From IMG/VR virus record IMGVR_UViG_2541047889_000001: DNA of 44,368 nucleotides. One strand, given 5' to 3'. Numbering within the stretch: the first letter of the stretch is position 1; each line of letters begins with the position of its first letter. The notes under the pieces were generated by a model. The model saw only the letters and a list, made by a program, of their open reading frames with translations, ran no database searches and was not told where the DNA came from. This stretch comes from a virus (taxonomy: Duplodnaviria; Heunggongvirae; Uroviricota; Caudoviricetes). The translations under genes and the position numbers were made by a program. Positions 26,774 to 39,099 of this stretch are shown here, in pieces.

Positions 26774-27856
26774 ATGAAAAAATTAACAGTGGCAATTTCT
26801 GCTGTAGCTGCATCAGTACTGATGGCGATGTCTGCTCAGGCAGCTGAAATTTATAATAAAGACAGTAACAAGCTGGATCTATACGGGAAAGTTAATGCCA
26901 AGCACTACTTCTCCTCTAATGATGCAGATGATGGTGATACTACTTATGCCCGTCTTGGCTTCAAAGGTGAAACCCAAATCAACGATCAACTGACTGGTTT
27001 CGGTCAGTGGGAATATGAATTCAAAGGCAACCGTGCTGAATCTCAAGGTTCTTCCAAAGACAAAACCCGTCTTGCATTTGCAGGCCTGAAATTTGGTGAT
27101 TACGGCTCAATCGATTACGGCCGTAACTACGGTGTAGCATACGACATCGGTGCGTGGACTGACGTCCTGCCAGAATTCGGTGGTGATACCTGGACCCAAA
27201 CAGATGTGTTCATGACTGGTCGCACTACTGGTGTTGCAACTTATCGTAACAACGACTTCTTTGGTCTGGTCGATGGCCTGAACTTTGCTGCTCAGTATCA
27301 GGGTAAAAATGACCGCACTGACGTAACTGAAGCCAATGGTGATGGTTTCGGTTTCTCCACTACTTATGAGTATGAAGGATTCGGCGTGGGTGCAACCTAT
27401 GCTAAATCAGATCGCACTGACGGTCAGGTCGCCTATGGTAAGAGCAAATTCAATGCCTCCGGCAAAAATGCGGAAGTATGGGCTGCAGGCCTGAAATATG
27501 ATGCGAACAATATCTATCTGGCTACCACATATTCTGAAACTCAGAATATGACCGTTTTTGGTAATAACCATATTGCAAACAAAGCACAAAACTTTGAAGC
27601 AGTAGCACAATATCAGTTTGACTTCGGTCTGCGACCATCTGTTGCTTACCTTCAGTCAAAAGGTAAAGACCTTGGTGTTCATGGTGACCGAGACTTAGTC
27701 AAGTATGTCGATGTCGGTGCTACTTACTACTTTAATAAAAACATGTCCACTTTTGTTGATTACAAAATCAACTTAATTGACGATAGTAAGTTTACCAAAA
27801 CAGCTGGTATTGATACCGACGACATCGTCGCTGTAGGTCTGGTTTATCAGTTCTAA
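26774..27856 (+). CDS. Outer-membrane general porin (OmpC/OmpF family; phage Lc / NmpC-like)
   Basis: 360 aa; signal peptide [23 protein letters not shown] followed by [17 protein letters not shown]...; ends VGLVYQF. Oriented opposite to Q and the lysis genes, as for nmpC in DLP12. Confidence 0.92.
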
Positions 27857-28428: not shown

Positions 28429-28513
28429 CAACTTACTCCACAAAAATCAGACCAGAACGCCAATTACAAGCAAAAATCAACAAAACAGTATTAGTTGATT
28501 GTTATCTCTGACT

Positions 28514-28651
28514 TCATACTCCTGCTCCTGTCAGGGTTTTGGCGTAATTCTTCAGTATTCGGTAATCGGTCAAAACAGAACCAGGAAAACGATATAAGCG
28601 CAGGCGCACCCAGCGGCGGCGAAGACGCTCTGCCATATAAGACTCAAACAT
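28514..28651 (-). CDS. ylcG: Small ORF in the ylcG position (45 aa)
   Basis: Not in the ORF track (under 60 aa). Translated by hand: [45 protein letters not shown]. Its ATG overlaps the rusA stop as TGATG. Position matches DLP12 ylcG; sequence identity is not verified. Confidence 0.5.
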   Translation of the reverse strand: MFESYMAERLRRRWVRLRLYRFPGSVLTDYRILKNYAKTLTGAGV

Positions 28652-29013
28652 CATTCATCTCCCAGTTCAGTGATAGTCAGCTCCAGCTTCCCACCTTTGG
28701 TAACGGGCATCTTCACAACGCGGTAATCAACGACCTGAGCATCATCCAGCCAGAAACCTGCTTTGGTGAGTGCGTCAAAAGCGGCCTTTTGCAGATTATC
28801 AAGGTCACGGCGACGGCGATCCGGCATGTGGCACTCAATGCTGATTTTCACAGGAATAGCCAGGCCGATATCCAGCATTGCGTTTTTAATGATTCGGGCG
28901 ACATTATCGCGGTATGCCTGCCCCTCTGCGCTGATATGCGTGCGTCCGCGATTATGGCGGTAATAGCGATTATTGCTCGGCGGCCAGGGTAATGTGATGC
29001 TGTAGGTATTCAC
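28651..29013 (-). CDS. rusA: Holliday junction resolvase RusA
   Basis: 120 aa, [50 protein letters not shown]...; matches DLP12 RusA from memory. Confidence 0.93.
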
Positions 29014-29300
29014 GCCTCAATAACCCCCTCTTTCAACCAGATAACCTGTGTTCTCGCCATACCTTCCAGCGCGCATTCTTTTGCATATCCAGCGTCAACA
29101 AAATGCGTGCGACGGTCGATTTCGTCGTGGCAGGCAGAACATGCAATGGTGGCAATCAGGTCTGGCGGTTTGGTACCGGTGCCACACAATCCAGCCAGCC
29201 GGATATGTGCCAGTACAGACGTTTCAGAATTGCCATTACATACGCCAGGGATTCTTACCTGGCATTCCCGACCACGCGCTGCTTTTCTCAAATCAGCCAT
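29010..29300 (-). CDS. ybcO: YbcO-like nin-region protein (Cys-rich, putative nuclease)
   Basis: Start at ATG 29300 ([24 protein letters not shown]...); Cys-rich CSACHDE. Matches DLP12 YbcO from memory. The track ORF extends 13 codons upstream. Confidence 0.75.
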
Positions 29301-29463
29301 GATTCCTCCTTGCTGCCAGTCGCAACCATTTTTTATCAACCAGGCTGGCGGTATATCCGAGCAGAGTTGGTATTTCGGATGGCTTCAGCTCAGGTTTACG
29401 CTTACGACGATTTGGTACTTTGTAGATGTGTCCGTTCATGACACGAATAAGCGGTGTAGCCAT
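29293..29463 (-). CDS. ninE: NinE
   Basis: Not in the ORF track (56 aa). Translated by hand: [56 protein letters not shown]. Its ATG overlaps the ninB stop and its stop overlaps the ybcO start. Matches NinE from memory. Confidence 0.75.
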   Translation of the reverse strand: MATPLIRVMNGHIYKVPNRRKRKPELKPSEIPTLLGYTASLVDKKWLRLAARRNHG

Positions 29464-29918
29464 TACGCCTCCTGCTTGTCGCGCAGCAGCTGGAACTCGC
29501 AGCTCTGCGGAATAGTCAGGTGGCAGCCAATATTCATCGCCCAGGCTTCAACCTTACACAGGAAGACATACATCTCTCCGGTATCAAGATCGGAGGTATG
29601 GCGTAACGACTGGATAGTAGTGATTTCGCCGGTTACGACATCAACCAGGTCCTTGGTTTCATAACCGAGGTATGTGTGTTTGAGAGCATCTTTTACCCAT
29701 GCTGCGGTAGCGAACGATTTCCCCCTGCTGATGAGGTATTCACTGATTTCGCTGTACCACATATGGCTGAGTGCATTCTGGGAAAGACTGCGTTTCTCAC
29801 GCCACGGTTTAAGCACCATGCGAAAGCATTTTCCGTCCTCCAGATAAGGCTGGATCTGCTGGCCGATAGCGATGAAGTTACCGCGATGCAGTTTGATGCC
29901 ATCTTGTGGTAGGTTCAC
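29463..29918 (-). CDS. ninB: NinB-family recombination protein (YbcN-like)
   Basis: 151 aa, [62 protein letters not shown]...; matches DLP12 YbcN from memory. Confidence 0.8.
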
Positions 29919-30365
29919 GCTTCACCTCCACAGAGGTCAGACGCTGGATGCAAAAAAACGCAGGTGCATTTCTGCATCTGTGAAGGGAGAAGAGAGTTTG
30001 GATTGTGTGTGCGCATAAACGTCCCCGTTTAGCGCAGAAGTCACCGGAGTTGTTCAGGCTCCGGTGATACAATTATGGCGAATTGATTATTCATAATCAA
30101 ACAAGATAAGGTCTCAAACTTCATGCAAGCCAAGATTTATTTCTGACAGAATTATACAAAGAAGCTATTGGTCAGAATCTACTCGGACTGTAAAACATAC
30201 GCATAACCTTAAGCTCTCACTTTAAGCATTGTTGAAATAATAGCCGTCAAGTACAACCTTAACCACGACTGGGATATTTCTCTGGCTACCACGAGTTGTA
30301 CGGCTATTAAACTGCCGTTAAATTCAGTAAGAGAATTTCATCCGATAAGTCAAGGCATGTAAAAC

Positions 30366-31409
30366 ATGAAAATTAACAAGATATTATCATCTGCAACACT
30401 ATTGTATGGTATGTCAATGGCCATGTCGGTCGGGAGTTGTGCAACACCTGTCCAGACTAATCTTCCTGGTTACACCCCGGGTGCAGATATCATTAGTGTT
30501 TCACCGACCAGAAACCAGGTCGATCTCATTGGTGATGTTGTTTATTCCCAGATAAAAGGAACTCGTTCTGTCAGACAGCTTCACATGTCAGTTCTTGTCC
30601 CGCGAACAAATGATTTAAAACCAGCCATTATTTATTATCCCGGCGGCGGATTCATGTCTTCTGAACATGACAAATTTATTGAAATGAGAATGGCTCTGGC
30701 AGAAGCTGGTTTTGTTGTGGCCGCTGTAGAATACAGAACAATTCCTGATACATTTCCAGCACCAGTTGAGGATGGAAAAGCTGCAATACGTTACCTGAGA
30801 GAGCATGCCAGCAATTATGGGATTGATCCTCAAAGAATCGGAGTTCTGGGTGACTCTGCCGGTGGATGGCTTGCCCAGATGATGGGAACTACAAATGGTG
30901 ACAAAACCTTTGATAAAGGTGACTTTCTTCAGCAATCCTCAGATGTTCAGGCAGTTGCCACACTTTATGGGATTTCTGACTTGTTGAATATTGGCGAGGG
31001 GTTCCCTGAATCAGTGCAGGAGGTTCATCGCTCTCCTGCCGTAACCGAAGCCTTAATGATCAATGGCCCTGCATTCAGAAATTTTGCGGGAGCCCCCATC
31101 ACAGCGTCAAAAGAAAAAGCGCTAAACGCCAGTCCAATCGGACATATGAAAGGAGTAAAACCCCCATTTCTTATTATGCATGGTAGCAAAGACACTCTGG
31201 TTTCACCTGAGCAAAGCGCCAAACTATTCAGGATGTTGAAGAAGAACGGTGATAACGCTGAGTACGTGCTGGTAGAAGGGGCCGAGCATGGCGATAATAC
31301 ATGGTATCAGCCAATTATTATAAACAGAGTTGTTGAGTGGTTTACTAAAAACCTGGGAACCCCCATAAAAAACGCTACCCAACAACAAAAAACAAACGCT
31401 GACCTGTAA
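30366..31409 (+). CDS. Lipoprotein alpha/beta-hydrolase-fold esterase/lipase
   Basis: 347 aa; lipoprotein-type signal MKINKILSSATLLYGMSMAMSVGSC; oxyanion-hole motif YYPGGGF and nucleophile elbow GDSAGG. Flanked by AT-rich DNA and opposite in orientation to the surrounding operon. Confidence 0.75.
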   Translation: MKINKILSSATLLYGMSMAMSVGSCATPVQTNLPGYTPGADIISVSPTRNQVDLIGDVVYSQIKGTRSVRQLHMSVLVPRTNDLKPAIIYYPGGGFMSSEHDKFIEMRMALAEAGFVVAAVEYRTIPDTFPAPVEDGKAAIRYLREHASNYGIDPQRIGVLGDSAGGWLAQMMGTTNGDKTFDKGDFLQQSSDVQAVATLYGISDLLNIGEGFPESVQEVHRSPAVTEALMINGPAFRNFAGAPITASKEKALNASPIGHMKGVKPPFLIMHGSKDTLVSPEQSAKLFRMLKKNGDNAEYVLVEGAEHGDNTWYQPIIINRVVEWFTKNLGTPIKNATQQQKTNADL

Positions 31410-31415
31410 AAAGCA

Positions 31416-31433
31416 GCCCGCACTTATGCGGGC
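31416..31433 (+). terminator. Hairpin downstream of the esterase gene (weak terminator)
   Basis: gcccgca-ctta-tgcgggc immediately after the esterase stop; no strong T-tract on the plus strand. Confidence 0.35.
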
Positions 31434-31758
31434 TAACCTATTTCACTCGATTCAAAAGAAATTATTTTTAATGGGGGCGTGACCAGCCTCTCGGTGCTCA
31501 GATACTTAATGAAGTGGAGTGGCATTCTGGCAAGAGGTTAACATCACCTGTTCGCCATAACCAAGCACGTGCACAAAGTTTGTTATCAGTGAATTGTTTT
31601 GTGATTGGGTATTGTTGAGCTACTAGAGCAAGAATGCCAACATCCAGTGACAGTGCCTATAGTAAAACTATAGCTCAGGGCGCTTCGTTCAAGATAGTTA
31701 ATATCATATTAGTTACTTTACTTTCATACCATAGCACGGTTGAAAAAGTGATTATTAC

Positions 31759-33285
31759 TCAAAAATAAACCTCACCATCAACCATATATTTAAGAGTACT
31801 TATCGCCTGCTGGGCGGATATTACTTTCATTAAAGGATAGTGTTTAAAAACAATGCCATTCATAAAATAGATATCACAGGTTTTATTATCTGTATTAATT
31901 ATAATTTTTTCGAATATTTTATAGGCAAGTGTACGACATAGCTCTCGCCCATTTTTACTGGTTAAATCAATAGCATGAAAATCACCAAGTGAACTCACCC
32001 CTTTACTCTTCAAAGTTTTTAATGATACCGAAGCCCTTCGTAATTCCTTATCTAATAGTCTTATTTTCTCTGCTATAGCGGTAACTTCAGGCGCGACAGA
32101 CAATGCAACGATTAAATTATTAATTTTCATCTGAAGCTCAATAATTTTTAACTCTAAAGTTTCATTAGCATCTTTCTTGTTTTCAACTGGTTGAATTTTG
32201 CTACAATTAAAAAGCAATTCATTAATGATATTATAATCAACCAAATCTCTTTTTATTGATGGCCTGTCACATCGATGTAATCTTCTCATCGGACAAACAT
32301 AATAGCCATGCAAACGTCCAGATACCGCATGAACAATCATGGTATTACCACAAGCCTCACACTTCATAACTGTTCGAAGTAGATTTATTAGCATAGGATT
32401 CTTGCTACTATTGCTAATACCAAAAGGTGCCAACCGAATTTCCTGTACAGCGTAAAACAAATCATCTGATATGACTCTGGGATAATAGCCAGCGATTTCA
32501 CTTATCCCTTTCCCTCTTGCACGATATGAAGGTACGCATATACCTATCAGAGCTTTATTCGCTAATAATTTTTCAATTACAGAAGGCCCCCATGCACTTT
32601 CTTTTCCTGAAAAATTTTTTACAGCATGATCATTTAAATACTTAGCTATTGCATTCAATGATCGCCTTTCCATCCTGAGTTTAAAAATTAGCTCAATCGT
32701 TTTCACCCTGTCGGGGTCTGGAATAAAAGCTGTTCTTTTGTCATCCAATGAGAGCCATCTCGGACAAGACGCCGTCATAATCGTGCCTGATTCCAGTGCA
32801 TCCTGCCGTTTTTTCTTCCATGATAATTTAACCCGACTTGACTTTATCTCGCTTTCTTCATTTGCCCTTTGTGCTATAAGTATGGCTTTTATTAATGAAT
32901 ATGGCTCATTCAATGAGTCTATATTATAGACTGTATTATCGCAAAGAGTTATAACATCAATACCGTGATTCAAAATCAATTTCAGACGCTCAATCGCTTC
33001 ACCGACTTTTTCTCTTGAAAGTCTGTCCAGACTTTCAACTAACAATGTAGTCCCTGGCAATATGTAACCATGTTCTATAGCATCTAAAAATTCCGAAAAA
33101 GCTCCTGATTGTGCATGCTTTCCATTGAATGCGCTTAACCCCAAATCTTCATACGTTACGGTATCAAGGTAATAATCACTATTTACCTTTAGCCATTCAG
33201 TAATAAGCCTTCTCTGGCGGTTTAATGAATCACCAGACATCTGACCTGGTGATGAAAATCGCATATATGCTATGGCTTTTTTCAT
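31759..33285 (-). CDS. Large serine recombinase (resolvase/invertase catalytic domain plus recombinase and zinc-ribbon domains), DLP12 YbcK-like
   Basis: 508 aa; N-terminal AIAYMRFSSPGQ...SLNRQRR catalytic-serine motif; Cys-rich CEACGN...YYVCP...HRC region; coiled-coil C-terminus. Flanked by AT-rich DNA. Confidence 0.85.
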   Translation of the reverse strand: MKKAIAYMRFSSPGQMSGDSLNRQRRLITEWLKVNSDYYLDTVTYEDLGLSAFNGKHAQSGAFSEFLDAIEHGYILPGTTLLVESLDRLSREKVGEAIERLKLILNHGIDVITLCDNTVYNIDSLNEPYSLIKAILIAQRANEESEIKSSRVKLSWKKKRQDALESGTIMTASCPRWLSLDDKRTAFIPDPDRVKTIELIFKLRMERRSLNAIAKYLNDHAVKNFSGKESAWGPSVIEKLLANKALIGICVPSYRARGKGISEIAGYYPRVISDDLFYAVQEIRLAPFGISNSSKNPMLINLLRTVMKCEACGNTMIVHAVSGRLHGYYVCPMRRLHRCDRPSIKRDLVDYNIINELLFNCSKIQPVENKKDANETLELKIIELQMKINNLIVALSVAPEVTAIAEKIRLLDKELRRASVSLKTLKSKGVSSLGDFHAIDLTSKNGRELCRTLAYKIFEKIIINTDNKTCDIYFMNGIVFKHYPLMKVISAQQAISTLKYMVDGEVYF

Positions 33286-33540
33286 GGTGACACCTGCTAA
33301 AGTATGCTTTTATAAACCTTAGTGGTGAGATATGATTTTTGTTTAATTTTTATTTAAAAAGACAATTAAGGTCACATTATCTTGAATATACAACAATAAT
33401 CGTATTGCAATTTTCTTACACCATGATCTTGAAAGATCAAAAGAATGAATAAAAACTAAAGACATTAACAAAAAGCATAAAACGAGGCCCATACAAATAT
33501 ACGAACCTCCATATTTTAGTCGTTTAAAAATAAATTATTT

Positions 33541-33873
33541 TTAATGTGGTGTGCTTCGTGACAATAAATTAATAACCAACACACCGGCACAAATCAACAT
33601 CATGCCTATAATGGCTGGCAGGTCCAACCGTTGGCCGAAAAATCCCCATGATAGTAAGCTAATCAGGACAATACCGACTCCTGACCAGATAGCATAAGCA
33701 ATCCCTGTAGGTATATAAGCCAGCGTCTGAGCTAATAACCAGAATGATGCACAATAACAAATAATTGTACCAACAGATGGCCATAACCGTGTAAAACCTT
33801 CTGAAAACTTCATTAAGGTTGTACCAATGACCTCTGCAAGTATTGCACCACCAAGATAAATATAAGGGTTCAT
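33541..33873 (-). CDS. emrE: Small multidrug resistance efflux protein EmrE
   Basis: Start at ATG 33873 (MNPYIYLGGAILAEVIGTTLMKFSEGFTRLWPSVGTIICYCASFWLLAQTLAYIPTGIAYAIWSG...) with AGGAAAG upstream; near-identical to E. coli EmrE from memory. Confidence 0.92.
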   Translation of the reverse strand: MNPYIYLGGAILAEVIGTTLMKFSEGFTRLWPSVGTIICYCASFWLLAQTLAYIPTGIAYAIWSGVGIVLISLLSWGFFGQRLDLPAIIGMMLICAGVLVINLLSRSTPH

Positions 33874-36799: not shown

Positions 36800-36909
36800 T
36801 ATTAATTCCTATTGGTATTACAATGAATAAATAATAGCAATGCGTATTAATCATAACAATAGCAAAACGTGTTTTGACCATCAATACGCAAGCGTATAAA
36901 TTAAAACTT
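36800..36909. promoter_or_regulatory. Right operator/promoter region: divergent pR (minus) and pRM-like (plus) promoters with three operator-like sites
   Basis: Minus-strand pR: -35 TTGTTA (36859..36854), 17-bp spacer, -10 TATTAT (36836..36831). Plus-strand pRM-like: -35 TTGACC (36874..36879), -10 TATAAA (36895..36900), no Shine-Dalgarno before the cI ATG at 36910. Operator-like AATA-N8-TATT sites at 36832..36849, 36857..36873 and 36881..36898. Confidence 0.6.
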
Positions 36910-37602
36910 ATGAAAAAAGAAACTCTTGCTGATCGCTTAAACCTAGCGATGGAACAATCTGGAATGTCTCAAGGCGCTCTTGCAAAGGCGTCTGGCGTAG
37001 CTCAACCCACAATCTGGAGACTGACAAGCGGCAACGCGCGCGGCTCAACAAAAATTGTTGAAATAGCTAATGCATTGGGTGTTCGAACAGAGTGGCTCTC
37101 ATCAGGCATAGGCCCGATGAGAAATGACGGTCAACAATTAGGGAAGCCTACTGCCAACCATCCCAAATACTTCAAGATTGACGTTCTTGATATAGAAGTG
37201 AGTGCCGGGCCGGGAGTCATCAACCGTGAGTTTGTAGAAGTTCTACGCTCGGTTGAGTACTCGTTTGACGATGCTCGTCACATGTTCGATGGTAGGAAGG
37301 CAGAAAATATCCGCATCATTAACGTACGCGGTGACAGCATGTCAGGAACGATTGAACCTGGTGATCTTCTATTCGTTGATATCACGGTTAAATCTTTCGA
37401 CGGTGATGGTATCTATGCGTTTCTGTACGACGACACAGCCCATGTAAAGCGCCTGCAAATGATGAAGGATAAGCTGCTGGTTATCTCTGATAACAAAAGC
37501 TACTCACCGTGGGACCCGATCGAGAAAGATGAGATGAACCGGGTATTTATCTTCGGGAAAGTTATTGGGAGCATGCCGCAGACGTATAGGAAGCATGGAT
37601 AG
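36910..37602 (+). CDS. cI: CI-like prophage repressor (N-terminal HTH, C-terminal S24 LexA-like peptidase domain)
   Basis: Start at ATG 36910 (MKKETLADRLNLAMEQSGMSQGALAKASGVAQPTIWRL...); C-terminal VRGDSMSGTIEPGDLLFVD and a downstream Lys (HVKRL) form the Ser-Lys dyad; Ala-Gly cleavage-type site EVSAGPG. The track ORF starts at an upstream TTG. Confidence 0.85.
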   Translation: MKKETLADRLNLAMEQSGMSQGALAKASGVAQPTIWRLTSGNARGSTKIVEIANALGVRTEWLSSGIGPMRNDGQQLGKPTANHPKYFKIDVLDIEVSAGPGVINREFVEVLRSVEYSFDDARHMFDGRKAENIRIINVRGDSMSGTIEPGDLLFVDITVKSFDGDGIYAFLYDDTAHVKRLQMMKDKLLVISDNKSYSPWDPIEKDEMNRVFIFGKVIGSMPQTYRKHG

Positions 37603-37682
37603 TACCAATTAAAAATTATCAACCGGGCATTGTGCTCATTCAGTAAAACAACTTAATTATTCATTTTAGAATGGAGAACTTA

Positions 37683-38744
37683 ATGGATACTTTAAAATAT
37701 GAGAAATTCTCTGATTTTGATCACAATGACCCATTTTTTGACTCTTTAAAAAAAGATTATAAAGAGTTTCCTCTTTGGTTAGAAAAAAAAGCCAGAGAAG
37801 GAGAATCAGCTTATGTGCTCTATGATGACAAGCATAAAATCGAAGGTTTTATGTATCTAAAAGAAAATGATGATGCAAATGACATTAATCCAGCGCTCCC
37901 ACCAGGACGTCATCTAAAGATAGGAACATTCAAATTTGAATCTAAAGGCACCCTTCGCGGACAACGATTTCTAAAAAAAGCGTTTGACCATGCATTTTCA
38001 TCAAAATCTGATGATATTTATGTTACTGTTTTCGACAAACACGTCCATCTAATAAAACTTTTCCAAACGTACGGATTTTACATTCATGGTGAAAAAGAAA
38101 CACATAACGGGAAAGAGTTTGTATATGCGAGGTCTTTGCATGAGCCTTATGGTGATATTTTATTAGATTACCCTCGAATAATGACATCAAGGGCCAACAA
38201 ATATTTACTGGCGATTTATCCCGAATATCACACTAGACTATTCCCTGATTCAAAACTTGTAAATGAATCACCAGATATTGTCAAAGATATATCCCATGCT
38301 AACAGCATTCATAAAATTTACATATGTGGAATGCGTTCTGTGATGGGAATGAAAAGAGGAGATATCATTGTCATCTATAGAACCGGAGACAAAAAAGGGC
38401 CAGCTCGCTATCGTTCTGTAGCCAGTACATTATGTGTAGTTGAGAGCGTAAAAAATATTTCTGAATTTTTAAGCGAAGATAGTTTTGTAGACTATTGTAT
38501 TCGTTTTAGCGTATTTTCTGAAGATGAACTCAGAAAAATCTATAAAGAACGTCGATACCCTTTCATTATAAGATTCACATACAATCTGTCTTTGTCAAAG
38601 AGACCCAATCGTGCTATTTTAATAGATCATGTGGGGCTAAATGGTTCGCGTGCATTCCGATGGAGTCACTTTAAACTCACAAATGAGCAGTTCTTAAAGA
38701 TCATCGAGTTAGGCAAGATAAATGAAAGTTTTATTATCCATTAA
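37683..38744 (+). CDS. Hypothetical two-domain protein: N-terminal GNAT-like acetyltransferase fold, C-terminal PUA-like/unknown domain
   Basis: AT-rich gene immediately downstream of cI. ATG 37683 is preceded by GGAG; the track starts at ATG 37671, which has no Shine-Dalgarno. GNAT-like motifs LRGQRFLKKAF and LIKLFQTYGFYIHGE. Domain assignment is by eye only. Confidence 0.6.
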   Translation: MDTLKYEKFSDFDHNDPFFDSLKKDYKEFPLWLEKKAREGESAYVLYDDKHKIEGFMYLKENDDANDINPALPPGRHLKIGTFKFESKGTLRGQRFLKKAFDHAFSSKSDDIYVTVFDKHVHLIKLFQTYGFYIHGEKETHNGKEFVYARSLHEPYGDILLDYPRIMTSRANKYLLAIYPEYHTRLFPDSKLVNESPDIVKDISHANSIHKIYICGMRSVMGMKRGDIIVIYRTGDKKGPARYRSVASTLCVVESVKNISEFLSEDSFVDYCIRFSVFSEDELRKIYKERRYPFIIRFTYNLSLSKRPNRAILIDHVGLNGSRAFRWSHFKLTNEQFLKIIELGKINESFIIH

Positions 38745-39099
38745 GCCTGAGTTTGCAGAAAAAATATTGAACGGAACAAAGCGGTTCGAGTTTCGTAAAG
38801 GTATATTCAAAAATCCGCAAATTAGCACCGTTGTTATTTATGCCACGATGCCATTAGGTAAAGTTGTTGGTCAATTCCGTATTGAATCAATACTAAGTGA
38901 CGAACCGGAATCTCTTTGGAAAAAGACGGAAAAACACGCAGGTATTTCTAAGCAATTTTATGACTCATATTATTCAGGTAGAGAAAAGGCCTACGCAATA
39001 AAAATTGGTGAAGTGGAAAGATATAAAGAACCAATTCCTATCTCTGCTCTAGGTAGTAATATTAAGCCACCACAATCATATCTTTACCTACCTGCGTAA
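38722..39099 (+). CDS. ASCH-domain protein (PUA-like)
   Basis: 125 aa, MKVLLSIKPEFAEKILNGTKRFEFRKG...; canonical ASCH N-terminal pattern. Overlaps the upstream gene by 23 nt; AT-rich. Confidence 0.65.
   Translation: MKVLLSIKPEFAEKILNGTKRFEFRKGIFKNPQISTVVIYATMPLGKVVGQFRIESILSDEPESLWKKTEKHAGISKQFYDSYYSGREKAYAIKIGEVERYKEPIPISALGSNIKPPQSYLYLPA

What the first reader, a model, noticed from the sequence alone, without database searches (positions are those of the whole stretch)
30060..31440. Lipoprotein alpha/beta-hydrolase esterase moron, reverse-oriented inside the early-right operon
A 347-aa protein with lipoprotein signal, YYPGGGF oxyanion motif and GDSAGG nucleophile elbow sits between the serine recombinase and the nin genes, on the opposite strand and in AT-rich flanks. 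This is the position where DLP12 carries ybcL and ybcM as I recall it. An exported esterase expressed from a lysogen could modify host surface or environmental substrates and act as a lysogenic-conversion factor.
Basis: partly seen in the sequence, partly recalled or inferred. Interest (0 to 1): 0.55.

Follow-up and report, generated by a model that had tools for sequence, protein, structure and literature searches.

The report
Prophage-borne exported feruloyl-type esterase moron
A lambda-like prophage of gut E. coli carries, backwards inside its early operon, an independently transcribed gene for an exported serine esterase. Its nearest relatives are plant-phenolic (feruloyl) esterases, so it is an ordinary accessory "moron" gene with a testable dietary-phenolic function.

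Summary
A 347-aa ORF (30366..31409, +) lies between ybcN/nin genes and the ybcK serine recombinase (both −). It has YYPGGGF (90-96), GDSAGG (162-167) and a lipobox-like signal ending at Cys25.

The window is a Perceval-type lambdoid prophage (E. coli LF82, ST131). A 1.6-kb cassette (30102..31719) replaces the ybcL-ybcM cassette of K-12 DLP12. The gene occurs in 681 of 5426 complete E. coli genomes and in several sequenced temperate phage genomes.

The protein belongs to Pfam BD-FAE (E 5e-45) and PHROG 3341 "esterase". Ser164/Asp276/His308 align with the solved BD-FAE triad. It is 63-66% identical to one of two Dickeya "ferulate esterases".

Its closest non-phage relatives (74-80%) sit directly downstream of a phenolic acid decarboxylase gene. 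That pairing recurs in Selenomonas. The best reading is therefore a periplasmic, probably lipid-anchored hydroxycinnamoyl (feruloyl/chlorogenate) esterase.

Published LF82 RNA-seq shows transcription while the flanking phage genes are silent.

The lipobox is specific to this clade; the wider family has ordinary signal peptides. Enzyme activity, substrate and lipidation remain untested.

This is a new member of a known kind, of moderate interest.

The parts
30102..31719 (.). Accessory cassette (1618 bp) replacing the 1813-bp ybcL-ybcM cassette of K-12 DLP12. The minimal shared module in other prophages is about 30124..31413.
   Evidence: blastn break points against K-12 (L024), ST131 prophages (L005, L006) and Escherichia sp. 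MOD1 (L013). K-12 annotation. GC 0.43 against 0.50 for the window.
30214..30241 (+). Candidate promoter: weak -35 CTCTCA, 16-nt spacer, extended -10 TGaAATAAT (TG 30233-30234, -10 30236-30241). Prediction only.
   Evidence: Own lenient scan. It lies in a block (30214-30242) that is invariant between the window, ST131, L007 and the 94%-identical L013 allele. The standard scan found no + strand promoter at its threshold.
30366..31409 (+). Esterase CDS, 347 aa (LF82_159 / PERCE_52 / WP_000700204-like); Pfam BD-FAE, PHROG 3341.
   Evidence: dN/dS is 0.14-0.16 among prophage alleles and 0.06-0.10 to pad-linked relatives.
30366..30440 (+). Signal peptide (residues 1-24) plus lipobox Cys25 (codon 30438-30440; V-G-S-C, Ala at +2).
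   Evidence: The 63-nt segment containing Cys25 is exact in 677 of 682 E. coli records. The Tyr25 variant is exact in none.
30642..30650 (+). GGG of the PGGGF oxyanion-hole motif (Gly93-Gly95).
   Evidence: Invariant in 38-sequence alignment A1.
30855..30857 (+). Catalytic nucleophile Ser164 (GDSAGG).
   Evidence: Invariant. Aligned with GFSSGG Ser128 of BD-FAE 6TKX and GDSSGG of 6NKF.
31191..31193 (+). Catalytic acid Asp276 (HGSKDTLV).
   Evidence: Invariant. Aligned with Asp237 of BD-FAE.
31287..31289 (+). Catalytic His308 (GAEHGD).
   Evidence: Invariant. Aligned with His269 of BD-FAE.
31414..31435 (.). GC-rich 8-9 bp hairpin 5 nt after the stop codon. On the − strand it is followed by CUUUUUA (terminator-like for transcripts coming from ybcK). 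On the + strand the U-tract is weak.
   Evidence: −14.8 and −17.5 kcal/mol, z about −3.2. ST131 prophages carry a different hairpin at the same place.
29463..30016 (-). Left flank: ybcN/ninB (29463..29918) and the small ylcH-like ORF (about 29915..30016). This is where the nin region shared with DLP12 resumes.
31759..33285 (-). Right flank: ybcK large serine recombinase.

Best explanation
The gene is a self-contained accessory (moron) cassette of a Perceval/DLP12-type lambdoid prophage. It encodes an exported Ser-Asp-His carboxylic-ester hydrolase of the BD-FAE / 'CE10' feruloyl-esterase group.

Proposed mechanism, with the status of each step:
- It is transcribed from its own promoter, antisense to the pR/nin operon, in the lysogen. 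Transcription is shown; the promoter position is inferred.
- The Sec signal takes the protein across the inner membrane. This is inferred from sequence, and export is universal in the family.
- Cys25 is probably lipidated, and with Ala at +2 the protein would be sorted to the periplasmic face of the outer membrane. This is inferred only.
- There, Ser164 attacks ester bonds of small hydroxycinnamoyl esters that enter through porins, such as feruloylated or p-coumaroylated oligosaccharides and chlorogenic-acid-like conjugates. Free phenolic acid and the sugar or quinate moiety are released. The substrate class is inferred from orthology and gene neighbourhood and has not been assayed. Some acetyl-esterase side activity is likely, as in BD-FAE.

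The cassette was most likely captured from an enterobacterial LysR-pad-esterase operon. Only the esterase ORF was retained.
For: Fold and family:
- Pfam BD-FAE scores 154 bits, E 5e-45. PHROG 3341 'esterase' gives E 4e-129.
- The best PDB sequence matches are 6NKF (E 1e-37) and then the BD-FAE/acetyl-xylan-esterase structures 6MLY, 6XYC and 6TKX.
- AF2 model: pTM 0.79, core pLDDT above 90.
- Foldseek: 6NKF E 7e-22, 6XYC/6TKX about 1e-16.

Catalytic residues:
- S164, D276, H308 and G93-95 are invariant in 38 homologs.
- They align with the crystallographic triad Ser128/Asp237/His269 of BD-FAE.

Orthology:
- The protein is 63-66% identical over its full length to Dickeya proteins.
- The D. aquatica copy and a 47%-identical paralog three genes away are both named 'Ferulate esterase' by the Dickeya annotators.

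Neighbourhood:
- The closest non-phage relatives (74-80%) lie 17-34 nt downstream of a phenolic acid decarboxylase gene (PF05870, E 2e-84) with a divergent LysR gene. This includes a copy on an E. coli IncF plasmid.
- PAD is also adjacent in a Selenomonas MAG (44% id) and, as a pseudogene, in Erwinia tracheiphila.

Moron behaviour:
- There is a clean cassette swap with ybcL-ybcM.
- The gene has its own hairpin terminator and lower GC.
- LF82 RNA-seq gives log2(fpkm+5) of 6.9-7.3 in DMEM 1 h and macrophage 1 h, against 2.3-3.1 for ybcN and ybcK (PMC9928086 S1/S4 tables).

Selection: dN/dS is 0.06-0.16.
Against: - No enzymatic data exist for this protein.
- BD-FAE relatives are promiscuous (acetyl as well as feruloyl esters), and the best PDB match is labelled a lipase.
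- PAD linkage is absent in many relatives (Klebsiella oxytoca, Pantoea, Pectobacterium, Enterobacter soli). It is also absent from the prophage itself, which has no PAD remnant.
- E. coli without PAD gains no obvious way to detoxify the released acids.
- I could not read the primary FaeD/FaeT paper. Which Dickeya paralog is FaeD or FaeT therefore rests on annotation names and my memory of the abstract.
- The lipobox has unusual -2 Gly and -1 Ser residues, and SPase-I cleavage is an alternative.
- The LF82 authors did not score the gene as a moron in LB. By my calculation it is about 3.5-4-fold over background, below their 5-fold cut-off.
Confidence: 0.55

Rival explanations
1. It is a carbohydrate acetyl-esterase: a deacetylase of acetylated xylan/pectin oligosaccharides, or of bacterial surface polymers such as O-antigen, capsule or peptidoglycan. 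In the second case it would change the lysogen's surface or its phage susceptibility, which is classical lysogenic conversion.
For: - BD-FAE is bifunctional, releasing acetate from birchwood xylan (PMC8165983).
- 6XYC is deposited as 'acetyl xylan esterase'.
- There are weak NCBIfam hits to acetyl esterase, PaeX and AxeA1, all far below their cut-offs.
- A periplasmic or outer-membrane location would give access to envelope polymers.
Against: - The nearest relatives are linked to phenolic acid decarboxylase and to Dickeya 'ferulate esterases'.
- The family is dominated by plant-associated bacteria.
- There is no match to any PADLOC defence or exclusion model.
- No glycan-modification genes are nearby.
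Confidence: 0.17
2. It is a general short/medium-chain carboxylesterase or lipase acting on host or dietary lipids (for example in macrophage vacuoles or mucus), and so a virulence-associated factor of B2 ExPEC/AIEC strains.
For: - The best solved-structure match, 6NKF, is named a rumen-metagenome lipase.
- The fold resembles the HSL family (Abhydrolase_3, E 1e-22).
- Transcript levels are higher in macrophages than in LB (log2FC 2.26, q 2.7e-13).
- The gene is carried by LF82, NRG857c and ST131 strains.
Against: - Expression is just as high in DMEM alone at 1 h, so induction is not macrophage-specific.
- No lid or cap typical of true lipases was identified.
- The neighbourhood evidence favours phenolic esters.
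- The LF82 CRISPRi gut screen text does not mention the gene.
Confidence: 0.1
3. It is a functionally neutral hitch-hiker: cargo that persists only because it sits in a recombination-prone slot of successful prophages and gives neither phage nor host a benefit.
For: - The slot is highly mosaic, holding ybcL-ybcM, the esterase or an inverse-autotransporter neighbour.
- The ancestral partner genes (PAD, LysR) were lost.
- Expression in LB is low.
Against: - The ORF is intact in about 671 of 681 carrier genomes.
- dN/dS is 0.14-0.16 among prophage alleles.
- The triad and the lipobox Cys are conserved.
- The upstream block is conserved.
- Transcription is autonomous and condition-dependent.
Confidence: 0.1

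Closest known systems
Dickeya feruloyl esterases FaeD/FaeT (Hassan & Hugouvieux-Cotte-Pattat 2011, J Bacteriol 193:963; listed as CE10 in PMC10319131)
   Same: - 63-66% identity over the full length to the 343/344-aa Dickeya proteins, and 47% to the neighbouring 328-aa paralog. Both are named 'Ferulate esterase' in D. aquatica.
- Same PGGGF / G-x-S-A-G-G / HGxxD / xHG motifs.
- N-terminal export signal.
   Different: - The Dickeya proteins have SPase-I type signals with no lipobox Cys.
- They are chromosomal and sit beside LysR regulators and an MFS transporter.
- The E. coli gene is a regulator-less prophage cassette.
- Which paralog is FaeD (secreted by the Out T2SS) and which is FaeT could not be verified here, because the paper is not held.
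BD-FAE, the bifunctional feruloyl/acetyl-xylan esterase from a Bacteroidetes PUL (PDB 6TKX/6XYC; Pfam PF20434; PMC8165983)
   Same: - Same Pfam family (E 5e-45).
- Same alpha/beta fold (Foldseek E about 1e-16).
- The Ser-Asp-His triad is aligned residue for residue.
   Different: - Only about 26% identity.
- BD-FAE lacks the PGGGF motif (it has YGSAW at that place).
- It is PUL-encoded in Bacteroidetes, not phage-borne.
Lip_vut4 (PDB 6NKF), goat-rumen metagenome esterase/lipase
   Same: Closest solved structure: 33% identity, E 1e-37 by sequence, Foldseek E 7e-22, TM 0.66-0.76. The triad and GDSxGG motif are aligned.
   Different: Its substrate is not known to me. It has no signal/lipobox region in the crystallised construct and no phage context.
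Enterobacterial LysR-pad-esterase operons (for example E. coli IncF plasmid pSCU-105-1)
   Same: These are the nearest non-phage relatives: 74-80% identity, with the same clade-specific lipobox-type signal (..STGC / ..SAGC).
   Different: There the esterase is co-transcribed with phenolic acid decarboxylase under a divergent LysR regulator. The prophage copy kept only the ORF, with homology starting about 10 nt before the ATG, and acquired a new upstream region and terminator.
ybcL-ybcM cassette of DLP12, and other lambdoid morons (bor/iss, nmpC, emrE)
   Same: It occupies the identical slot between ybcK and ylcH-ybcN. It encodes an envelope or periplasmic protein expressed from the prophage.
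   Different: The proteins are unrelated: YbcL is a PEBP-family periplasmic protein and YbcM an AraC-type regulator. ybcL and ybcM are co-oriented with the operon, whereas the esterase is reversed.
NanS-p sialate O-acetylesterases of Stx prophages (from my own knowledge)
   Same: Concept only: a prophage-encoded esterase that lets E. coli use an esterified gut substrate.
   Different: A different fold and family. No SGNH/DUF1737-type domain was found among the Pfam hits. The genome position also differs (late region downstream of stx).

Membership tests
Pfam BD-FAE (PF20434) / alpha/beta-hydrolase serine esterases | Profile score above the curated gathering threshold over the whole domain | tested here: met
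   154 bits against a 26.8 cut-off; residues 80-290 match profile positions 7-214 of 215.
Pfam BD-FAE (PF20434) / alpha/beta-hydrolase serine esterases | Ser-Asp-His catalytic triad at the positions seen in the crystal structure | tested here: met
   S164, D276 and H308 are invariant in 38 homologs. They align to Ser128/Asp237/His269 of 6TKX. Three-dimensional geometry was not measured.
Pfam BD-FAE (PF20434) / alpha/beta-hydrolase serine esterases | Alpha/beta-hydrolase fold | tested here: met
   AF2 pTM 0.79. Foldseek probability 1.00 to 6NKF, 6XYC, 6TKX and 6MLY.
Pfam BD-FAE (PF20434) / alpha/beta-hydrolase serine esterases | Feruloyl and/or acetyl esterase activity | not testable with these tools
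   Needs an enzyme assay.
Hormone-sensitive-lipase family (bacterial family IV, Abhydrolase_3) | HGG(G) oxyanion motif and GDSAG nucleophile motif | tested here: inconclusive
   GDSAG is present (162-166). The oxyanion motif is PGGGF, with Pro in place of the canonical His, and this holds throughout the family. PF07859 scores 81 bits but below BD-FAE. All NCBIfam HSL subfamily models are far below their cut-offs.
Dickeya FaeD/FaeT-type feruloyl esterases | Full-length orthology-level similarity to the characterised proteins | tested here: met
   63-66% identity at 94-100% coverage to Dickeya proteins named 'Ferulate esterase'. The link to the experimentally studied D. dadantii genes is by annotation only.
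Dickeya FaeD/FaeT-type feruloyl esterases | Control by an adjacent LysR regulator (FaeR) responding to ferulate | tested here: not met
   There is no regulator gene in the cassette 30102..31719.
Bacterial lipoproteins (Lgt/LspA/Lnt substrates) | Signal peptide with a lipobox ending in an invariant Cys within the first ~35 residues | tested here: met
   SVGS-C25 matches the PROSITE-style pattern, which I wrote from memory. Cys25 is exact in 677 of 682 E. coli records. The motif is shared only with the pad-linked clade.
Bacterial lipoproteins (Lgt/LspA/Lnt substrates) | Actual diacylglyceryl modification and LspA (globomycin-sensitive) cleavage | not testable with these tools
   Needs labelling or fractionation. 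No dedicated predictor (LipoP, SignalP 6) was available.
Phage moron (autonomous accessory gene) | Presence/absence as a discrete cassette between otherwise homologous phage genomes, with deviating composition | tested here: met
   Sharp homology breaks at 30101 and 31720 against DLP12. GC is 0.43 against 0.50.
Phage moron (autonomous accessory gene) | Own terminator and own promoter | tested here: inconclusive
   A hairpin follows the stop codon directly, but its U-tract is better on the opposite strand. Only a predicted extended -10 promoter was found.
Phage moron (autonomous accessory gene) | Expression from the repressed prophage, independent of neighbouring lytic genes | tested here: met
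   Published LF82 RNA-seq: LF82_159 gives 1650/1665 raw reads (DMEM 1 h), against 10/17 for ybcN and 54/61 for ybcK (PMC9928086 S4). It is below the authors' 5-fold criterion in LB.
Anti-phage defence systems (PADLOC) | Match to a known or candidate defence protein model | tested here: not met
   0 families at E <= 0.01.

The most novel reading that the evidence does not exclude
Temperate phages spread a dietary-polyphenol trait among gut E. coli. On this reading, the prophage lipoprotein esterase is the unidentified enzyme behind the strain-variable ability of human colonic E. coli isolates to hydrolyse chlorogenic acid and related hydroxycinnamate esters. Three E. coli strains with this ability were reported by Couteau et al. 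2001, as cited in PMC10340781 and PMC4335975. The gene would give B2 lineages such as AIEC LF82 and ST131 access to quinate or sugar moieties, or alter the local phenolic-acid chemistry in the gut.
Probability: 0.25. Interest if true: 0.55.

Novelty: new member of a known kind. Interest (0 to 1): 0.35.

Why it matters
About one in eight complete E. coli genomes (681/5426) carries this gene on lambdoid prophages. They include the Crohn's-associated strain LF82 and pandemic ST131.

If the enzyme is a hydroxycinnamoyl esterase, it is an example of phage-mediated transfer of a plant/dietary phenolic-processing function into a human gut commensal and pathobiont. It would also be a concrete candidate for the unassigned chlorogenate/cinnamoyl-esterase activity reported in some E. 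coli isolates.

The locus also illustrates how the ybcK|ybcN slot of DLP12-type phages exchanges envelope-directed cargo. The claim can be tested with a simple clone-and-assay experiment and one deletion mutant.

It does not reveal a new kind of system.

Tried and rejected
1. I looked for a remnant of the phenolic acid decarboxylase gene upstream of the esterase. tblastn of two PAD proteins against the whole window gave only chance hits (E >= 0.6). Nucleotide homology to the pad-esterase loci starts about 10 nt before the ATG.

2. The 90%-cluster representative P0001 has Tyr instead of Cys25, so I suspected the lipobox Cys might be a sporadic polymorphism. This was rejected: the Cys-containing 63-mer is exact in 677 of 682 E. 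coli records and the Tyr version in none.

3. An Rfam search of 29800-31900 for a riboswitch or leader gave no hit at E <= 1.

4. A PADLOC search for a defence role gave no hit.

5. I tried to read Hassan & Hugouvieux-Cotte-Pattat 2011 to decide which Dickeya paralog is FaeD and which FaeT. It is not held by DOI or PMC id. A text search for faeR returned only noise.

6. The genome-contig scan with the single protein returned only 7 loci, because it uses exact peptide patterns. It was useful for PAD linkage but not for a census.

7. A literature search for prophage plus feruloyl esterase plus lambdoid found no paper holding all the terms.

8. The standard promoter scan found no + strand sigma-70 site upstream at its threshold. 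Only my more lenient scan gave a candidate.

9. LF82-derived coordinates for the genes next to cI did not fit the window, which differs from LF82 there. I redid this with the window's own ORFs.
Full report
**1. What is there**

It runs 30366..31409 on the + strand, has an ATG start and encodes 347 aa. YYPGGGF lies at residues 90-96 and GDSAGG at 162-167. The only cysteine is Cys25, which closes an N-terminal K-rich plus hydrophobic segment, MKINKILSSATLLYGMSMAMSVGS|C.

All neighbouring genes are on the − strand:
- On one side: ybcN/ninB (29463..29918), ninE, ybcO, rusA, ylcG and Q.
- On the other side: the 508-aa large serine recombinase ybcK (31759..33285), emrE, ren, P and O.

The intergenic flanks have GC 0.38-0.42 and the ORF 0.445, against 0.50 for the window.

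**2. Where the window comes from**

The 1.9-kb region is 100% identical to E. coli FDAARGOS_1372 and 99.9% identical to LF82, NRG857c and SE15. In LF82 it lies in an icd-integrated lambdoid prophage. That prophage is published as 'Perceval' (PMC9928086).

The same protein (99.7% identity) is encoded by the deposited temperate phage genomes Perceval, 4A7, Lambda_4C10, D2, 1W, 3W and PhiR47_2.

The gene alone is found in 681 of 5426 complete E. coli genomes. It covers at least 80% of the query in 671 of them. 174 genomes carry the full ybcN-esterase-ybcK arrangement.

**3. Cassette structure**

K-12 DLP12 has ybcK-ybcL-ybcM-ylcH-ybcN. Homology between DLP12 and the window stops at 30101 and resumes at 31720. 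A 1618-bp esterase cassette therefore replaces the 1813-bp ybcL-ybcM cassette in the same slot.

ST131 prophages share 28513..31413 and then continue with a large inverse-autotransporter gene instead of ybcK/emrE. An Escherichia sp. genome shares 30124..31476. The mobile unit is thus about 1.3-1.4 kb: roughly 250 bp of upstream sequence, the ORF and a terminator.

A stable GC-rich hairpin follows the stop codon at 31414..31435 (−14.8 and −17.5 kcal/mol, z about −3.2). Its U-tract is better on the − strand. I infer that it also stops ybcK-side transcripts from running antisense into the gene in the lysogen. ST131 prophages have a different hairpin at the same place.

No strong sigma-70 promoter was found upstream. 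A candidate extended −10 (TGaAATAAT, ending at 30241) sits in the best-conserved upstream block. No Rfam family matches the region.

**4. Expression**

[quoted passage not shown] I read the column names B1/B6, BLB and MB1/MB6 as DMEM 1 h/6 h, LB stationary, and macrophage 1 h/6 h.

| Condition (my reading) | log2(fpkm+5), two replicates |
|---|---|
| LB stationary | 4.38 / 4.13 |
| DMEM 1 h | 6.92 / 7.19 |
| DMEM 6 h | 5.07 / 5.09 |
| Macrophage 1 h | 6.98 / 7.30 |
| Macrophage 6 h | 6.12 / 6.27 |

The flanking ybcN and ybcK are near the floor, at 2.3-3.1, in LB and in DMEM at 1 h. Macrophage 6 h against LB gives log2FC 2.26, q 2.7e-13.

The gene is therefore transcribed autonomously from the prophage. 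The level in DMEM alone equals that in macrophages, so induction is not macrophage-specific.

The authors did not list it among Perceval's morons. In LB it is only about 3.5-4-fold above the local background by my calculation from their table, below their 5-fold cut-off.

**5. What the protein is**

- Pfam BD-FAE (PF20434) is the best family: 154 bits, E 5e-45. Abhydrolase_3 is second.
- No NCBIfam equivalog reaches its cut-off.
- PHROG 3341 'esterase' matches at E 4e-129.
- The best solved relatives by sequence are 6NKF (goat-rumen Lip_vut4, E 1e-37), the GH43-CE protein 6MLY, and BD-FAE itself (6TKX/6XYC).
- An AF2 model built on 38 homologs has pTM 0.79 and core pLDDT above 90. Low-confidence segments are the signal peptide, residues 50-69 and 233-241.
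- Foldseek returns the same structures first: 6NKF at E 7e-22 and 6XYC at 5e-17.
- Ser164, Asp276, His308 and Gly93-95 are invariant in the alignment.
- These residues align with the crystallographic triad Ser128/Asp237/His269 of BD-FAE (PMC8165983; alignment).
- I could not measure triad distances, because model coordinates are not exposed.
- dN/dS is 0.14-0.16 between prophage alleles and 0.06-0.10 to the nearest non-phage clade. The protein is therefore under purifying selection.

**6. Which substrate**

Two independent lines point to hydroxycinnamoyl esters.

(a) Orthology. The 2586 homologs at E <= 1e-10 are led by plant-associated Enterobacterales and rhizobia: Dickeya, Pectobacterium, Pantoea, Kluyvera, Kosakonia and Rhizobium.
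- In Dickeya aquatica the 343-aa homolog (63-66% identity) and a 328-aa paralog three genes away (47% identity) are both named 'Ferulate esterase'.
- The paralog lies next to a divergent LysR gene.
- This matches the faeT/faeR/faeD genes of Dickeya described by Hassan & Hugouvieux-Cotte-Pattat 2011. The reference is confirmed, and the enzymes are listed as CE10 feruloyl esterases in PMC10319131. Details of that paper come from my memory of the abstract, since it is not held.

(b) Gene neighbourhood.
- The closest non-phage relatives (74-80% identity) lie 17-34 nt downstream of a phenolic acid decarboxylase gene (PF05870, E 2e-84) with a divergent LysR regulator.
- One such copy is on a conjugative IncF plasmid of a human commensal E. 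coli. PGAP annotates it as phenolic acid decarboxylase followed by alpha/beta hydrolase.
- PAD is also immediately upstream of a 44%-identical homolog in a Selenomonas MAG. It is adjacent, as a pseudogene, in Erwinia tracheiphila.

An esterase that frees ferulate or p-coumarate, coupled to the enzyme that decarboxylates those acids, is a coherent two-step pathway.

The prophage copy retained only the esterase ORF. Many other relatives are not PAD-linked.

**7. Export and lipidation**

Every full-length family member has an N-terminal signal peptide, so export is a family trait. Most have ordinary AxA-type cleavage sites and no Cys.

Only the prophage clade (..SVGS-C) and the pad-linked clade (..STG-C..SAG-C) carry a lipobox-type Cys. 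The representative of the 90% cluster has Tyr at this position. Among complete E. coli genomes, however, the Cys-containing segment is exact in 677 of 682 records and the Tyr variant in none.

With Ala at +2, the default E. coli fate would be the inner leaflet of the outer membrane. This follows from established Lol-sorting rules and is inference. Lipidation itself is untested.

**8. Most likely mechanism and rivals**

The best reading (about 0.55) is a periplasmic, probably lipid-anchored hydroxycinnamoyl esterase made by the lysogen. It would act on small feruloyl, p-coumaroyl or caffeoyl esters that pass the porins.

Rivals:
- A carbohydrate or envelope acetyl-esterase (0.17).
- A general lipid/carboxyl esterase linked to virulence (0.10).
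- Neutral cargo (0.10).

None of the rivals is excluded without an assay.

**9. Comparison with what is known, and novelty**

The gene is already annotated as alpha/beta hydrolase or esterase in genomes and phage records. It belongs to described families (Pfam BD-FAE, a PHROG family).

Three points add to the annotation:
- Assignment to the Dickeya ferulate-esterase orthogroup.
- The PAD-operon ancestry.
- The documented lysogen expression.

My literature searches found no paper on these points.

One connection is worth testing. Three human colonic E. coli isolates were reported to hydrolyse chlorogenic acid (Couteau et al. 2001, as cited in PMC10340781 and PMC4335975). As far as I know, no gene has been assigned to that activity.

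**10. Verdict**

This is a new member of a known kind. Interest is moderate to low (0.35), because the feature is an ordinary moron of a known enzyme family, although it carries a neat and cheaply testable functional hypothesis.

Noticed in passing
window 37671..38744 (+) and 38722..39099 (+), just downstream of the cI-like repressor gene 36874..37602 (+): A two-gene module in the rexAB position matches the PADLOC candidate defence system PDC-M11. Protein A (357 aa) gives E 1.9e-133 and has no Pfam domain. Protein B (125 aa) gives E 6.8e-52 and has an ASCH domain. In LF82 the gene in this position (LF82_152, 'transmembrane protein') is the most highly expressed Perceval gene in lysogens (81x background). 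The LF82 sequence differs from the window here.
   Followed up: partly
window 26774..27856 (+): An intact 360-aa OmpC/NmpC-type porin gene sits between the Q antiterminator and the lysis genes, reverse-oriented. It is the intact counterpart of the IS5-disrupted nmpC of K-12 DLP12. It is listed as a Perceval moron (10x background) in PMC9928086.
   Followed up: partly
L005 10081..15682 and L006 12621..16886 (ST131 prophages): In ST131 lambdoid prophages the esterase is convergent with a very large inverse-autotransporter (intimin/invasin-like, about 1421 aa) gene. That gene replaces ren-emrE-ybcK. It is IS2-disrupted in one strain, and separated from the esterase by an ISEc23 insertion in another, where the esterase tail is truncated to 343 aa.
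   Followed up: no
P0001 / L007 6073..6075; also P0005: Rare alleles replace the lipobox Cys by Tyr (TGT to TAT), once in the prophage clade and once in the pad-linked clade. Such variants would be secreted or periplasmic rather than lipid-anchored, if the Cys is indeed lipidated. They are natural controls for localisation.
   Followed up: partly
L025 399..7113 (metagenome contig): An 80%-identical esterase homolog lies next to a SPATE-type serine-protease autotransporter (Peptidase_S6, 1307 aa) and a PerC-family regulator gene. This looks like a virulence plasmid or island context, not a prophage or a pad operon.
   Followed up: no
window 31759..33285 (−) and 33300..33600: The ybcK recombinase gene and the spacer towards emrE are markedly AT-rich (GC 0.27-0.39, against 0.50 for the window). 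This suggests that the whole emrE-ybcK-esterase stretch is a patchwork of foreign cargo inside the pR operon.
   Followed up: no
L028 8829.. (Klebsiella variicola plasmid pKP91) and Pantoea/Klebsiella/Kosakonia plasmids: Signal-peptide-less 317-318-aa versions of the esterase (about 73% identity over residues 32-330) are common on large plasmids of plant-associated Enterobacterales. This suggests cytoplasmic paralogs, comparable to a cytoplasmic FaeT-like form.
   Followed up: no
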